This document shows positions 46,144 to 50,418 of a DNA stretch of 64,000 nucleotides, in pieces. The translations under genes were made by a program, and so were the position numbers. Numbering within the stretch: the first letter of the stretch is position 1; each line of letters opens with the position of its first letter. The notes under the pieces were generated by a model. That model had not been told where the DNA came from and ran no database searches. It was given only the letters and a program-made list of their open reading frames with translations. This stretch comes from Phycisphaerales bacterium. Its GTDB lineage: Bacteria > Planctomycetota > Phycisphaerae > Phycisphaerales > JAGLTS01. Where the stretch lies: contig JAGLTS010000013.1 in the NCBI GenBank assembly GCA_023135165.1, positions 19,462 to 83,461 on the forward strand, written 5' to 3'.

Positions 46144-46914
46144 ATGGAGAACACGCCGACGGAGGACAAGCCGGGCCGGGGCAAGCGTCGCAAGAGTGCC
46201 ACGGGTGATCCGTACGGCAGGCCGACGCTTCGGCTTCAGTCCACGACGCTGTGGGAGTACCCGAGCCAGGACTACGGCAGCACACAGCACGGCACAACGG
46301 GCTACGAAGGCGCGACGCCCGCATGGGTCATCTGGGATCTGCTCACGCGCTACACTCGGCCTGACGATCTGGTCGTCGATCCGATGGCGGGCGGCGGCAC
46401 GACGCTCGATGTCGCACGCGAGCTGGGCCGCAAGGCGCTCGCATACGACATCAATCCCGTGCGAGAGGATATCTTCCGCGCCGACGCGCGTGCGCTCCCG
46501 CTCGAAGACGCCAAGGCTGACTTCATATTCGTCGATCCACCCTATTCAACACACATCGAGTACTCCGACGATCCGAACTGCATCGGCAAGCTCGATGCGC
46601 GCAGCGATGCGTACTTCCAGGCGATGACGCAGGTGATTGCCGAGATCGACCGTGTCCTGCACGATCGGCGATACATGGCCATGTACGTGAGCGACTCATT
46701 CCGCAAGGGCAAGCCGTTTGTTCCGATCGGGTTCGAGTTGTTCGCGATGCTGCGGGAGCGTTTCGATCCGATCGACATCATCGCCGTCGTGCGAGGCAAT
46801 CGAAAGCTGAAGAAGCCGCACTGGCACAAAGAAGCGGTGAAAGGCAACTACTTCCTGCGCGGTTTCAACTACCTGTTCATCATGAAGAAGGACACATCAC
46901 AGCATTCGCGCTGA
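46144..46914 (+). CDS. Orphan amino-methyltransferase (N4/N6 DNA methylase / TRM11-like)
   Basis: VVDPMAGGGTT SAM-binding motif and catalytic DPPY. Confidence 0.8.
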   Translation: MENTPTEDKPGRGKRRKSATGDPYGRPTLRLQSTTLWEYPSQDYGSTQHGTTGYEGATPAWVIWDLLTRYTRPDDLVVDPMAGGGTTLDVARELGRKALAYDINPVREDIFRADARALPLEDAKADFIFVDPPYSTHIEYSDDPNCIGKLDARSDAYFQAMTQVIAEIDRVLHDRRYMAMYVSDSFRKGKPFVPIGFELFAMLRERFDPIDIIAVVRGNRKLKKPHWHKEAVKGNYFLRGFNYLFIMKKDTSQHSR

Positions 46915-47064
46915 CCGCTCCGCACGGACGTATGCCGTACGTTCCAAACGTAATGCAATACGCAACCAGCGCCGCCACGCAGCGCACCCTGCCAACCCGC
47001 GCCCGCACGCGCACACCCTCTTCTGCCTTTGTGCCTCTGCCACTTTGCCCCTTCCCCGCCCCAA

Positions 47065-47190
47065 TCAGTCCAGGGCCAAGCGGAACCCGAAGTAGTAGAA
47101 CCGGTTGACGGGGTTGATCCTGAAGCGGCCCGCACAACGCAGGCTGATCTCGATGTAGCTCCACGAGCCGCCGCGAAGAACACGCCGTGA
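47065..47190 (-). other. Putative DGR variable repeat (VR) at the 3' end of the kinase-FGE gene
   Basis: 15 of the 24 codons between TGG and GGG-TTC are NNC at positions where DGR templates typically carry AAC/GAC. Confidence 0.65.
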
Positions 47191-50100
47191 TTGATCGCCT
47201 CCTCTTGTCCATGCCGAGCCGTCAGTTGGCGCGCCGCTGTAACTGTCGTGCCAGACATCCTGACACCATTCCCACACGTTGCCGTGCATGTCGTGCAAAC
47301 CCCAGACATTCGGCTGCTTCGACGCCACCGGATGCGTCTTGTTACCTGAGTTGCCGTAGTACCACGCATAGCGGCTTAGGCTCCCATCGTCGTTGCCGAA
47401 GCAGAACCGCGTCGTCGTCCCCGCTCGGCACGCATACTCCCATTCCGCTTCCGTCGGCAAGCGGTACGTTCTGCCCTCCGAACGGCTGAGCTTCTCACAG
47501 AACGCCACCGCATCGTTCCAGGACACCGTCTCCACGGGGAGGTCGTCGCCCTTGAAATGGCTCGGGTTCGTTCCCATGACAGCGCGCCACTGCGCCTGCG
47601 TTACCTCCGTCACGCCCATGTGGAAGCCGGTGGTCAGCGTCACGCGGTGCTGCAGACCTTCGTCGTCATCGTGGCCTTCTTCATTGGACGGTGAACCCAT
47701 CATGAACGTGCCCGGCTCGATGTAGACCAGTTCCATGCCGATCGAGTTGGTGAACGCGTCGCCGCCGTCGGACTCCTCCTCTTCGACTTCCGCCTCCGTC
47801 TTGGTCACGCTGAAGGTGCCCGAGATACCCATCTCGACGACCTCCCACGTACCGGTGATCGTGTCGCCCTCCAGCGTACCTCGCATGATCGACGTTATGC
47901 CCTCTTCGGTGTCCGTCGCGGTGAACTCGCCGGTCGCCTCGTCGAACGTGATCTCGCCGAGATCGTCCGTCTCCGATTGGCCCATCATCTCGACCGTGCT
48001 CGTGCCGGTGATCGTTCCATCCTCTGCCACGCTGATCGACATCGTGAACGATGCGCTGTCCATCTCGGGAGGCAGGCCCATGGCCGACAGACCGCTGAGG
48101 GTCCCTTCCCACACGCCGTGGATCGGGCTTGTCGGGATGTACGCATCCTCATCCTCTGCGTCCTCATCCTCCTCTTCATCGTCGTCGGCGTGTTGAATCA
48201 GCAGTCCGTGCAACGAGGAAGTTGCCCGTTGCCAAGTATCTTGCGCGACGTTGAGGTTGCCGGACTCGAACTCATCCTGTGCCTGGGCGGCGCTGCTCTC
48301 AGCCTGTGCCACAGCATCTGCAATGTTCACATACAAAGAGCCCGCTGGTTTGCGGCCGAGTTCGGTAAGCCAGGCTTGGCGGGATTCCGATGCGGCTTTG
48401 TGTGCTTTGGCATGGCGCTGTAGCGGATCGGCGATGTTCACCACCGCTTGACGCCAACTGGACTCGGCATCCGGGAACGCGCCCGCATCGAACCGCTCCT
48501 GGGCTTCCGCTGCAAGAGCAATCGCAGACTCGGCGGCATCCCGCACATCGACAAACCAGACTGCTGGCAGCTCCCGTGAAGCCCATTGCTGGCGGGCTGT
48601 ATCGGCGGCTGTTGCTTGAGAGTTCATCTCACGGGCGCTCTGGAGCGAGGACAGTGCTTCGGACCACTTCGACTCAGCCGCTGGATACTCTTCACCTTCG
48701 GTGAATAGCCTGCCGGCCTCTAAGTTGAGTGCGCCTGCAGCATCCCTTGCACTGATGACACGTAGATTGCCCGGCAGCCAAGTGATTCCCTTGAGCGCAT
48801 CGTCATAGGCAGTTCTTGTCTCGTCAGCGGCGACAGCCTGCCCGCTCAATCTGATGGCTGCGTCGAGGTGGTCGATCGCCTCCTGGTACGCCAGTGCGGC
48901 GGCAGCGAAGTGATCGACCTGCTTGTTCTGCTCGGCAGATTCCATCGCACTGGATGCCAGGGAGAGGGCGCGGGTGATCGAATTGGAAGTGTCCTTGAAA
49001 CGCAGGCTCTCCACATCCAACTGCAATGCGTCAAGCTGCCGCTCCAGCGGGCGCAGACTTTCGGCGCTCGTGAATTGTGGCGTCACCACGGGCGTCGGCA
49101 GCGCGCCGCCCTGCCCCGGCTGCTGTGTGACCACCCACCATGTTACGACCGCTGCGATCGCGATGACGAGCACCGTTGATAACGCTGCGATGCGCCGACC
49201 TTTGTTGCGCCCCTTGCTGTGCGGGCGTGCATCGGGCCGGGACGGCCCGGCTCTGTGTGGGACGCTGCGCTCGCCCGCCAGCGCCGCTGCCAAGTCGCCC
49301 GCTGTGGCCGGTCGATCATCCGCATCCTTCGCCAAACCCGCGAGCAACGCATCATTCACGTGTGCAGGCTGATCCTCGATCGGCAGCACGGGGCGAGTGC
49401 GTATCTGATGACTGATGTCACCTGTCGTGAACGGCGGCTCACCCTTGATCGCTTCATACAGCGTCGCTGCGAGCGAGTAGATGTCGTTTGACGTGCTGTT
49501 GATTCCATCGATCTGCTGCGGACTCATGTAAGGCAGTGTGCCTGAGCTGTCGCGCCCCGTCACGCGCGTCATCGTGTCCTTGGCTTCACGCGCGATGCCG
49601 AAGTCCATGAGATATGCGCGGCTGTGGCGGCCATGCCTGCCGATCATGATGTTCGATGGCTTGATGTCGCGATGCAGTATGCGCTGTGCGTGTGCATGGT
49701 CGAGCGCCTCAGCGACCTGCTTCGCCCATGTCGTGACGCGCTTCAGCGGCAGACCTTCGGGATGATCGACAAGCACATCGTCGAGCGTCTTGCCTTGCAC
49801 GTACTGCATGACCAGAAAGGCGATGCCGCCGCGCGTGTGGTCCTGCTCGAAATTGATCAGGCGGACGATGTGCGGATGCGTCAGTTCCAGGCAGGTGGTA
49901 GCTTCCTTCTTGAGCCGAGCGATCGCGCGTGCGTTGGATGTCAGCGCGGTGGGCAACAGCTTCAGCGCGACCTCGCGGTCGTCGAGCGTCGTGTCATGCG
50001 CGAGCCAGACAACACCCATCCCGCCACGTCCGATCTCGCGCACGAGCCGGTAGCGCTTCGCGAGCATCTCGCCCGGCTCAACAGAGACAAGCGTGTCTTC

Positions 50101-50235
50101 ATACTCATCCGGAGCCCCACGACCCCCACCTTGAGCGGAGTCCGCCCGTGGCGGACCAACGGCGGACCCATCGCGCGGCGTTCCTTCACCTGATTCCAAC
50201 GTGTGATCGAACTCATCTGGCGCCGGTCCGGGCAT
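47065..50235 (-). CDS. Transmembrane Hanks-type Ser/Thr kinase with a helical stalk and C-terminal FGE-sulfatase (CLec-fold) domain
   Basis: IGRGGMGVVW, VALK, HRDIKPSN, DFG, GTLPYMSPQ; TM IAALSTVLVIAIAAVVTWWVV; FTNSIGM, YRLPTEAEWEYACRAG, DMHGNVWEWC, RGGSW...GFRL. Confidence 0.93.
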   Translation of the reverse strand: MPGPAPDEFDHTLESGEGTPRDGSAVGPPRADSAQGGGRGAPDEYEDTLVSVEPGEMLAKRYRLVREIGRGGMGVVWLAHDTTLDDREVALKLLPTALTSNARAIARLKKEATTCLELTHPHIVRLINFEQDHTRGGIAFLVMQYVQGKTLDDVLVDHPEGLPLKRVTTWAKQVAEALDHAHAQRILHRDIKPSNIMIGRHGRHSRAYLMDFGIAREAKDTMTRVTGRDSSGTLPYMSPQQIDGINSTSNDIYSLAATLYEAIKGEPPFTTGDISHQIRTRPVLPIEDQPAHVNDALLAGLAKDADDRPATAGDLAAALAGERSVPHRAGPSRPDARPHSKGRNKGRRIAALSTVLVIAIAAVVTWWVVTQQPGQGGALPTPVVTPQFTSAESLRPLERQLDALQLDVESLRFKDTSNSITRALSLASSAMESAEQNKQVDHFAAAALAYQEAIDHLDAAIRLSGQAVAADETRTAYDDALKGITWLPGNLRVISARDAAGALNLEAGRLFTEGEEYPAAESKWSEALSSLQSAREMNSQATAADTARQQWASRELPAVWFVDVRDAAESAIALAAEAQERFDAGAFPDAESSWRQAVVNIADPLQRHAKAHKAASESRQAWLTELGRKPAGSLYVNIADAVAQAESSAAQAQDEFESGNLNVAQDTWQRATSSLHGLLIQHADDDEEEDEDAEDEDAYIPTSPIHGVWEGTLSGLSAMGLPPEMDSASFTMSISVAEDGTITGTSTVEMMGQSETDDLGEITFDEATGEFTATDTEEGITSIMRGTLEGDTITGTWEVVEMGISGTFSVTKTEAEVEEEESDGGDAFTNSIGMELVYIEPGTFMMGSPSNEEGHDDDEGLQHRVTLTTGFHMGVTEVTQAQWRAVMGTNPSHFKGDDLPVETVSWNDAVAFCEKLSRSEGRTYRLPTEAEWEYACRAGTTTRFCFGNDDGSLSRYAWYYGNSGNKTHPVASKQPNVWGLHDMHGNVWEWCQDVWHDSYSGAPTDGSAWTRGGDQSRRVLRGGSWSYIEISLRCAGRFRINPVNRFYYFGFRLALD

Positions 50236-50418
50236 CGTCGTCCCCTTTCGTCGTCGCAGTCTACACAGCCCGCGCGACTCCACAACCCCCATATTTCCAT
50301 CGGCGATCATCCCCATTCCCTCACCCCCGCAGCGCCCGCACCATGCGCACCATCACCGGCATCGCGGTTCGTCGCCGCACACCCTCGCCAATGCGCGCGC
50401 GATGCCGAGCGAGCATCG

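What the first reader, a model, noticed from the sequence alone, without database searches (positions are those of the whole stretch)
47065..50235. Receptor-type Ser/Thr kinase whose extracytoplasmic tip looks like a DGR-hypermutated variable repeat (remote DGR target)
Seen: an intact-looking kinase (VALK, HRD, DFG), one TM helix, a long helical stalk and an FGE-sulfatase/CLec domain. Between RGGSW and GFRL the coding strand reads AGC TAC ATC GAG ATC AGC CTG CGT TGT GCG GGC CGC TTC AGG ATC AAC CCC GTC AAC CGG TTC TAC TAC TTC (47160 down to 47089). Fifteen of these codons are NNC with no C in positions 1-2. All can be derived by adenine-only changes from a template such as AAC AAC AAC GAG AAC AAC CTG CGT TGT GCG AAC CGC AAC AGG AAC AAC CCC GAC AAC CGG AAC AAC AAC AAC (SWNNNENNLRCANRNRNNPDNRNNNxGFR). 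The scaffold codons (CGT, TGT, AGG) look uncommon for this GC-rich genome. Established: DGRs mutate template adenines, and CLec/FGE C-termini are their classic targets, including dispersed targets and kinase fusions. Inference: a trans-acting DGR elsewhere in the genome diversifies the ligand-binding site of a membrane-spanning kinase, giving an antigen-receptor-like signalling system. Caveat: C-ending codons are common at high GC, and no TR, RT or avd is present in this window.
Basis: partly seen in the sequence, partly recalled or inferred. Interest (0 to 1): 0.88.

Follow-up and report, generated by a model that had tools for sequence, protein, structure and literature searches.

The report
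Receptor kinase carrying a DGR-type variable tip
A membrane-spanning Ser/Thr kinase ends in a 120-base cassette of the kind that diversity-generating retroelements rewrite, but no retroelement or template for it is in this genome assembly, so it is a known kind of hypervariable receptor whose present activity is unproven.

Summary
Window 47065-50316 (-) encodes a 1083-aa Hanks kinase, one TM helix, a long stalk and a C-terminal FGE/CLec domain. The 24 codons read as quoted.

The codon statistic alone is weak: 0.22% of genome windows match it, and P is about 0.003-0.005 given the amino acids. Comparison with other genomes is strong:
- The adenine-free 24-mer at the 5' edge (47161-47184) matches exactly in 64 genome and 110 metagenome stretches across phyla. 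These include Asn-rich template repeats.
- In 8 of 10 same-locus TR/VR pairs, every mismatch lies at a template adenine.
- A subfamily in other Planctomycetota shares our scaffold codons, while the flanks are unrelated. The closest copy is 92/120 nt identical, against 33% aa identity upstream.
- On one metagenome contig a true DGR diversifies a homologous kinase-TM-FGE protein.

Against a working system here:
- The 92.4%-complete assembly has no RT and no template.
- The one sample holding the locus shows a single VR sequence.

Verdict: a DGR-written variable repeat on a receptor kinase. I put current diversification at about 35-40%. It is a new member of a known kind.

The parts
47065..50316 (-). 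Whole ORF, 1083 aa: receptor-type Ser/Thr kinase with an FGE/CLec ectodomain. An alternative ATG lies at 50235.
49267..50052 (-). Hanks-type kinase domain, residues about 89-350. VALK at 116, HRD at 215, DFG at 238.
49123..49197 (-). Single transmembrane helix, residues about 374-398. A basic stretch on its N-terminal side places the kinase in the cytoplasm.
   Evidence: Kyte-Doolittle; the only segment above 1.6
48217..49029 (-). Ala/Glu/Gln-rich, probably helical stalk with roughly 75-aa repeats, residues about 430-700. No Pfam family.
   Evidence: the repeats were read by eye and not tested
47761..48195 (-). Thr/Gly/Glu-rich module, residues 708-852. It is 88% identical to part of a 1312-aa ORF on contig C29.
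47074..47733 (-). FGE-sulfatase / C-type-lectin-fold domain, residues 862-1081. The best solved relative is the Treponema DGR variable protein TvpA.
47161..47184 (-). 5' block of the cassette: an adenine-free 24-mer encoding RVLRGGSW, shared exactly with DGR TRs and VRs across phyla.
47089..47160 (-). Variable core: 24 codons, 15 of them NNC. It is interleaved with the scaffold codons CTG CGT TGT GCG, CGC, CCC and CGG.
47068..47088 (-). 3' block (GFRLALD) ending in CTGGAC. This is the VR-side form of the TR/VR boundary, where the TRs read CTGCAC.
46900..47064 (-). Dispersed repeat just after the stop codon, shared with paralogs and other loci. It is not part of the cassette family.

Best explanation
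The gene encodes a single-pass receptor kinase. A cytoplasmic Hanks Ser/Thr kinase is joined by one TM helix to a long stalk and an extracytoplasmic FGE/C-type-lectin-fold domain.

The last ~120 bp (47068-47184) are a variable repeat of the diversity-generating-retroelement (DGR) kind. This segment was written by mutagenic retrohoming from an AAC-rich template of a Planctomycetota 'LRCA...GFRLALD' lineage. That event randomised about 15 ligand-contact codons and reset the scaffold codons to those of the template.

In this assembly the cassette is an orphan: no template, DGR reverse transcriptase or linked Avd is present, and the population sampled carries one VR sequence.

Shown: the architecture; the cassette and its sharp boundaries; its kinship with proven TR/VR pairs.

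Inferred: that retrohoming, rather than recombination, placed it here; that ligand binding by the tip controls the kinase; and whether rewriting continues. My estimate is 35-40% that it continues, through a DGR missing from the bin.
For: 1. The 24-mer at 47161-47184 matches exactly in 64 genome contigs stretches and 110 metagenome stretches, and in one viral contig.
- For random DNA I estimate about 0.1 chance matches in the genome collection (my arithmetic; the size of the metagenome collection is not known to me).
- In the 40 nearest relatives this peptide in CGN/GTN/CTN/TCN codons occurs 0 times. In G000 it occurs twice, both times with the cassette codons.

2. Of 188 matching segments, 19 have at least 10 Asn in the 24 residues after Trp, so they look like templates.
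- In 8 of 10 same-locus TR/VR pairs, all 10-17 mismatches lie at template adenines.
- One further pair has 13 of 14 at adenines, and one has 15 of 22.

3. At the 11 codons where a complete DGR of a same-order genome (G015: VR, avd, RT, TR) has AAC or AAT, our gene has NNC 11 of 11 times. It also shares the CGC, AGG and CCC scaffold codons.

4. Subfamily copies in L127, G401 (4 copies), G403 (2) and G402 (1) share CTG CGT TGT GCG / CGC / CCC / CGG / GGG TTC CGN TTG GCC CTG GAC with ours.
- Against these 8 copies, ours is 21-24 of 24 identical in the 5' block and 14-21 of 21 in the 3' block.
- It is only 9-22 of 60 identical just upstream.
- It is at background level after the stop codon (3/15 for the truncated L127; 4-12/30 for the other seven).
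- L127 is 92/120 nt identical in the cassette but 33% aa identical in the FGE domain upstream.
- Ours deviates from the majority at 1 of 68 scaffold positions, the fewest of the 9 copies.

5. The VR-side CTGGAC against TR-side CTGCAC is seen in G015, L161/L169, L140 and L056. Ours has CTGGAC.

6. Paralog C47 is 92% identical over the 130 nt before the core and 89% over the 45 nt after it, but about 50% within it. This shows that only the cassette was exchanged.

7. L161 (TR and RT) and L169 lie on one 71.8-kb metagenome contig. They show 19 mismatches, all at template adenines. The target is an 845-aa kinase-TM-FGE protein whose kinase motifs closely resemble ours; this was judged by eye from the printed sequence and not aligned.

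8. The best solved relative of the domain is the DGR variable protein TvpA (2Y3C, E 6e-40), and the VR aligns without gaps.
Against: 1. No cognate template exists in the assembly. The best adenine-tolerant match in 3.9 Mb is another gene's 3' end, with 28 non-adenine mismatches. Scans of 48-nt parts for 8 paralog VRs give 0 hits.

2. RVT_1 gives 0 hits in an assembly scored 92.4% complete. tblastn with the G015 RT and Avd gives nothing below E 0.088.

3. The best foreign template (L056) still has 13 non-adenine mismatches out of 31. That is ordinary for a VR against a non-cognate TR, where the median is 15.

4. The other three MAGs that carry the subfamily also lack a template or a DGR-type RT in their bins.

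5. In the only run holding the locus, a 9447-nt contig at depth 13.6 crosses the VR with 0 differences. Contigs drop rare variants, so this excludes only gross heterogeneity.

6. The codon bias follows partly from amino-acid composition, and the same positions are N/S/D/Y/G/F-rich across the FGE family. Paralogs C47 and C25b also have a pyrimidine-ending codon (NNC or NNT) at 11 of 11 of those positions; this is my hand count from the codon table, whose printed C-only tally is 9 of 11 for each.

7. The paralogs are mosaics, so gene conversion is active in this family.
Confidence: 0.8

Rival explanations
1. Active remote target. A DGR (RT, Avd, TR) of this organism lies on an unbinned contig, plasmid or prophage and still rewrites 47089-47160 in trans.
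For: The cassette looks fresh. It deviates at 1 of 68 scaffold positions, and all 15 variable codens end in C.

DGR loci in MAGs sit on short contigs: G015's is 2.9 kb and L056's is 3.3 kb.

The assembly is 92.4% complete.

Trans-acting DGRs and remote targets are documented (PMC7517822 and PMC10907252; passages read).
Against: No RT or TR is found in the bin.

The contig data show a clonal VR at depth 13.6.

Three other MAGs carrying the subfamily also lack a TR or a DGR-type RT.

C50 is the only other LRCA-type copy in the genome. It differs from ours at 28 non-adenine positions, so the two cannot share one template.
Confidence: 0.37
2. The cassette arrived by recombination or gene conversion with a foreign or paralogous DGR-target gene. 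No DGR ever acted on this gene in this lineage.
For: The FGE domains of the paralogs are mosaics. Segments are 81-97% identical to one paralog and 44-48% identical to another.

The cassette family is patchy across phyla, which fits horizontal transfer.
Against: The exchanged tract coincides closely with the TR/VR repeat limits seen in proven pairs. The L056 homology starts about 10 nt upstream of the 24-mer, and the tract ends at CTGGAC.

No donor gene with this VR is in the genome.
Confidence: 0.15
3. It is an ordinary FGE-domain C-terminus. The NNC run reflects an F/Y/I/S/N-rich binding loop plus GC-rich codon usage, with no DGR history.
For: 0.22% of genome windows reach the same count.

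The family-wide composition at these positions is similar.

PvdO, which to my knowledge (recalled, from no call) is not a DGR target, aligns almost as well as TvpA (E 2.5e-37).
Against: It cannot explain nucleotide-level identity of the 5' block and scaffold with VRs and TRs of distant taxa when the flanks are at background level.

It cannot explain the use of the minor codons CGT, GTT and CTT where other paralogs use CGC, GTG and CTG.
Confidence: 0.07

Closest known systems
Ser/Thr-kinase-CLec variable proteins of cyanobacterial DGRs, including remote targets and undiversified 'VP homologs' (PMC7517822; passages read)
   Same: An N-terminal Hanks kinase is fused to a C-terminal CLec/FGE domain with the VR at the 3' end. 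Dispersed paralogs occur, some with and some without TR homology.
   Different: Those are reported as mostly cytosolic and sit in genomes with an identified DGR. Ours has a TM helix and a 680-aa ectodomain, comes from a probable Planctomycetota MAG, and has no DGR in its assembly.
DGR-diversified kinase-TM-FGE protein on metagenome contig Ga0214473_10000278 (L161 TR and RT; L169 target)
   Same: It has the same order of parts (kinase, TM, FGE/VR) and the same 24-mer. Its kinase motifs closely resemble ours by eye; I did not align them.
   Different: It has a cognate TR, with 19 mismatches all at adenines, a CRSA-type scaffold and a shorter stalk (845 aa).
Treponema denticola TvpA (PDB 2Y3C), a DGR variable protein
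   Same: It is the best solved relative (E 6e-40), and the VR region aligns without gaps.
   Different: The PDB chain is 294 residues with no kinase match. That TvpA is a lipoprotein is recalled and comes from no call.
Thiohalocapsa PB-PSB1 DGR targets, described as putative antigen sensors (PMC10907252; passages read)
   Same: The targets carry CLec/FGE VRs together with TM, Pkinase or STAND domains. Diversification in trans is reported.
   Different: That genome holds nine DGRs, and diversification was measured in natural populations. Neither is shown here.
PvdO (PDB 5HHA), an FGE-fold protein
   Same: It has the same fold and C-terminal motif frame (E 2.5e-37).
   Different: It has no cassette-type nucleotide kinship. 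That it is not a DGR target is recalled and was not tested here.

Membership tests
DGR variable protein (target of a diversity-generating retroelement) | The variable region lies in a C-type-lectin/FGE-fold domain at the 3' end of the gene. | tested here: met
   Pfam finds FGE-sulfatase at residues 862-1081. TvpA is the best PDB hit. The VR ends 1 codon before the stop.
DGR variable protein (target of a diversity-generating retroelement) | A cognate template repeat exists that differs from the VR almost only at template adenines. | tested here: not met
   No such copy is in the 119 contigs. The best foreign TR has 13 non-adenine mismatches. Pattern scans for the scaffold found none in the viral, genome and metagenome collections.
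DGR variable protein (target of a diversity-generating retroelement) | A DGR-class reverse transcriptase, usually with Avd, is in the same genome. | tested here: not met
   RVT_1 gives 0 hits. tblastn with a same-order DGR RT and Avd gives a best E of 0.088. One stand-alone Avd-family ORF has no RT nearby. The assembly is 92.4% complete, so absence is not proven.
DGR variable protein (target of a diversity-generating retroelement) | Variable codons correspond to AAY codons of the template, and scaffold codons are invariant. | tested here: met
   This was tested by comparison with non-cognate templates only. Our gene has NNC at 11 of 11 AAY positions of the G015 TR. The scaffold is shared with 8 subfamily VRs, with 1 deviation in 68 positions.
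DGR variable protein (target of a diversity-generating retroelement) | A 3' boundary element (IMH-like) distinguishes VR from TR. | tested here: inconclusive
   Ours ends in CTGGAC, as do the VRs of four proven sets whose TRs read CTGCAC. No stable hairpin follows (z 0.23). Function cannot be tested here.
DGR variable protein (target of a diversity-generating retroelement) | Hypervariability in populations is limited to the adenine-derived positions. | tested here: inconclusive
   Only one run holds the locus, and only as contigs. A single 9447-nt contig at depth 13.6 crosses the VR with 0 differences. Contigs hide rare variants.
Hanks-type (eukaryotic-like) Ser/Thr protein kinase | A Pkinase domain carries the catalytic Lys, HRD and DFG motifs. 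| tested here: met
   Pfam scores 133 bits against a cut-off of 31.7. The motifs lie at residues 116, 215 and 238.
Formylglycine-generating enzyme (catalytic FGE) | Catalytic cysteine pair and sulfatase-maturing activity. | not tested
   The closest relatives are the non-enzymatic TvpA and PvdO (E 1e-37 to 1e-40), against true FGEs at about 1e-19. The active-site residues were not examined.

The most novel reading that the evidence does not exclude
The 'LRCA...GFRLALD' cassettes form an orphan VR family. In 4 of 4 Planctomycetota MAGs that carry them (this one, G401, G402 and G403), no template or DGR RT is binned, yet the scaffolds stay near-identical while the variable codons differ completely. 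The cassettes would then be rewritten in trans by a DGR on an extrachromosomal or phage-like element that binning systematically misses. That DGR would serve several surface receptors, including this kinase, as a mobile shared diversifier.
Probability: 0.12. Interest if true: 0.8.

Novelty: new member of a known kind. Interest (0 to 1): 0.5.

Why it matters
DGR-diversified sensors fused to signalling domains are the nearest bacterial analogue of antigen receptors. A version with a clear outside-in topology would be a clean model for how a hypervariable binding site is wired to a phosphorylation output. This gene offers that topology: a variable lectin-fold tip outside, one TM helix, and a kinase inside.

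The case also shows that DGR target cassettes can be recognised without their retroelement. The markers are an adenine-free 5' block, template-type scaffold codons and sharp cassette boundaries. This is useful for annotating MAGs where the DGR itself is missing.

Kinase fusions, TM targets and trans-acting DGRs are already published, so this extends a known kind rather than opening a new one.

Tried and rejected
1. Codon count as proof. It was rejected as sufficient evidence: 0.22% of windows match it, and much of it follows from amino-acid composition.

2. C50 as the template. It is itself the 3' end of a 1029-aa secreted repeat protein and has 28 non-adenine mismatches.

3. G001, the only genome of the same family. 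Its RT looks retron-like by my reading of its motifs. No TR-like stretch showed up in the same-locus regex scan.

4. Exact scaffold patterns found 0 stretches in viral contigs, metagenome contigs and genome contigs. In 400 genomes of the order there were 2 one-mismatch hits, against 5 hits for the reversed control pattern, so this is chance level.

5. The whole-library HMMER search with the FGE domain was swamped by proteins with many FGE repeats. It gave only family-wide composition.

6. A hairpin after the VR was not found (z 0.23).

7. The Avd-family ORF on C80 stands alone.

8. Runs X2 and X3 hold next to none of the stretch.

Supplements of PMC7517822 and PMC10907252 were not requested; their target tables may list similar kinases.


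Full report
WHAT IS THERE

The minus strand of window 47065-50316 carries an uninterrupted 1083-aa ORF. Pfam finds a protein kinase domain at residues 89-304 (E 1.5e-38) and an FGE-sulfatase domain at 862-1081 (E 2.6e-52). VALK, HRD and DFG lie at residues 116, 215 and 238.

There is a single hydrophobic segment at about residues 374-398. A basic stretch on its N-terminal side puts the kinase in the cytoplasm and the C-terminal ~680 residues outside. The window is contig C25:19462-83461 of a 119-contig, 3.9-Mb assembly with 62.7% G+C, scored 92.4% complete.

IS THE CODON PATTERN MORE THAN CHANCE?

On its own, only modestly.
- Fifteen of 24 codons are NNC without C in positions 1-2, against 21% in the rest of the gene. 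This is the top window of 1060 in the gene.
- Yet 2970 of 1,342,924 genome windows (0.22%) do as well.
- Given the amino acids, the chance that all 15 codons end in C is 0.003-0.005. Empirically, 1.3% of comparable windows do so.
- Across 263 FGE domain copies in 150 database proteins, the same positions are rich in N, S, D, Y, G and F.
- Paralogs C47 and C25b also have a pyrimidine-ending codon (NNC or NNT) at all 11 positions where a real template has AAC or AAT. This is my hand count from the codon table; its printed C-only tally is 9 of 11 for each.

The statistic is a lead, not proof.

NO DGR IN THE ASSEMBLY

- RVT_1 gives 0 hits in the assembly, although the control genomes ring.
- tblastn with the RT and Avd of a complete DGR from a same-order genome finds nothing below E 0.088.
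- An adenine-tolerant scan of both strands of every contig finds no template. The best match is the 3' end of another FGE gene, with 28 non-adenine mismatches.
- Scanning 48-nt parts of the VRs of 8 paralogs gives 0 hits.
- One Avd-family ORF (C80) lies between FtsH-like and dipeptidase-like genes, by my reading of the translations, with no RT nearby.
- Only one public run, a cold seep metagenome, holds the locus. There a 9447-nt contig at depth 13.6 crosses the VR with no differences. The one 'skipping' contig is the paralog C47.

THE COMPARATIVE EVIDENCE THAT CHANGES THE PICTURE

1. A real DGR in the same order. Genome G015 has a complete DGR: a cut VR, avd, an RT with the IGNLTSQ motif, and an Asn-rich TR.
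- Its TR differs from a VR in a caspase-like-FGE gene at 18 of 124 nt. By my hand count from the alignment, 17 of these lie at template adenines.
- Codon for codon, our gene has NNC at all 11 AAC/AAT positions of that TR. It also shares the CGC, AGG and CCC scaffold codons.

2. A cross-phylum 24-mer. The adenine-free 24-mer that encodes RVLRGGSW at 47161-47184 occurs exactly in C25, C47 and C50 of this genome. It occurs in none of the 40 nearest relatives.
- In those relatives the peptide does not occur at all in CGN/GTN/CTN/TCN codons.
- It has exact matches in 64 stretches of species-representative genomes and in 110 metagenome stretches. The genome hits come from Alphaproteobacteria, Planctomycetota including Phycisphaerae, Myxococcota, Bacteroidota, Vibrio and spirochaetes.
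- It matches one viral contig.
- Of the 188 matching segments, 19 are Asn-rich templates.
- In 8 of 10 same-locus TR/VR pairs, all 10-17 mismatches lie at template adenines. One further pair has 13 of 14 at adenines and one has 15 of 22.
- 17 of the 174 fetched stretches hold a DGR-type RT motif.
- The 24-mer therefore marks a DGR TR/VR family.

3. A subfamily with our exact scaffold. It is present in metagenome contig L127 and in three Planctomycetota MAGs: G401 with four copies, G403 with two and G402 with one. The shared scaffold is CTG CGT TGT GCG, CGC, CCC, CGG and GGG TTC CGN TTG GCC CTG GAC.
- Against these 8 copies, our gene is 21-24 of 24 identical in the 5' block and 14-21 of 21 in the 3' block.
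- It is only 9-22 of 60 identical immediately upstream.
- It is at background level after the stop codon (3/15 for the truncated L127; 4-12/30 for the other seven).
- L127 is 92/120 nt identical within the cassette, while its FGE domain upstream is only 33% identical in protein.
- Our copy deviates from the majority at 1 of 68 scaffold positions, the fewest of the nine copies.

4. The cassette boundary. In four proven sets the VR ends in CTGGAC where the TR reads CTGCAC. Ours reads CTGGAC.

5. Exchange within the genome. Paralog C47 is 92% identical over the 130 nt before the core and 89% over the 45 nt after it, but about 50% inside it.

A discrete, template-sized cassette with its own history is what mutagenic retrohoming produces. 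It is not what ordinary divergence produces.

LIMITS

- No fetched template is cognate. The best one (L056) leaves 13 non-adenine mismatches out of 31, which is typical of a VR against a foreign TR, where the median is 15.
- The three other MAGs with the subfamily also lack a TR or a DGR-type RT in their bins. Either such loci are systematically unbinned, or these cassettes persist as orphans.
- The FGE paralogs are mosaics, 81-97% identical to one paralog and 44-48% to another depending on the segment. Recombination could therefore have carried the cassette in.

HOW IT MOST LIKELY WORKS

This part is inferred. The FGE/CLec tip presents about 15 randomised residues on a ligand-binding face. 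The frame aligns without gaps to TvpA, the best solved relative at E 6e-40. Ligand binding outside the membrane would be relayed through the stalk and the single TM helix to the Hanks kinase.

A true example of this arrangement exists. On one 71.8-kb metagenome contig, a TR beside an RT differs from the VR of an 845-aa kinase-TM-FGE protein at 19 positions, all at template adenines.

KNOWN OR NEW

Kinase-CLec DGR targets, remote targets and undiversified paralogs are described in cyanobacteria (PMC7517822; passages read). Targets with TM and kinase domains, and trans diversification, are described in Thiohalocapsa (PMC10907252; passages read). Two literature searches listed no paper whose title or abstract describes a Planctomycetota receptor-kinase case. 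This is not proof that none exists, and supplements were closed.

VERDICT

- The 'DGR-type VR' reading is supported, at confidence about 0.8.
- The claim of an active trans-acting DGR in this genome is not shown, at about 0.35-0.4.
- It is a new member of a known kind.

Noticed in passing
window 46900-47064 (-), just after the stop codon: A dispersed repeat lies directly after the stop codon. A motif of about 40 nt, and in three loci (C25 near 14.7 kb, C47, C78) a further 40-100 nt tract, recur downstream of paralogs C25:14.8 kb and C47 and on contigs C78, C28, C41, C48, C103 and C51. It has no significant fold (z 0.23).
   Followed up: partly
G000 contigs C25 (14.8 kb), C47, C41, C30, C99 compared with window 47065-50316: This is a family of kinase-FGE paralogs whose FGE domains are mosaics. 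Alternating segments are 81-97% and 44-48% identical, which points to frequent gene conversion. C47 and C25:14.8 kb show no obvious TM helix by eye (no hydropathy scan was run). Only the window's gene has the long stalk.
   Followed up: partly
G000:C50:44348-47437 (L238): A 1029-aa secreted protein has about 13 FG-GAP-like repeats, a dockerin-like segment and an FGE domain. Its 3' end is a second, more decayed LRCA-type cassette.
   Followed up: partly
L041 (G015:C95) and L015, L228 (G015:C1): A same-order genome holds a complete DGR (VR, avd, RT, TR) on a 2.9-kb contig. It has at least three VRs, one of them in a caspase-like-FGE protein of 589 aa.
   Followed up: partly
L161 and L169 (metagenome contig Ga0214473_10000278); L140 (SMTZ1_10000338): These are DGRs whose targets include an 845-aa kinase-TM-FGE protein. 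The L140 contig carries one TR and two VRs of the same type.
   Followed up: partly
window 46144-46914 (+): The ORF next to the kinase gene has a DPPY-type DNA methyltransferase motif. No partner restriction gene was noticed.
   Followed up: no
window 47761-48195 (-), residues 708-852: A Thr/Gly/Glu-rich module with no Pfam family is 88% identical to part of a 1312-aa ORF on contig C29. The same module appears in G001 and G028.
   Followed up: no
G000:C80:39209-39526 (L046): A stand-alone Avd-family (23S_rRNA_IVP) ORF lies between FtsH-like and dipeptidase-like genes (my reading of the translations), with no RT nearby.
   Followed up: yes
window 50235-50316 and the paralogs' N-termini: The N-terminal segment with the repeated APDEF(D/E)HTLESGEG motif is conserved among paralogs. 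The conservation extends upstream of the internal ATG, so the true start codon is uncertain.
   Followed up: no
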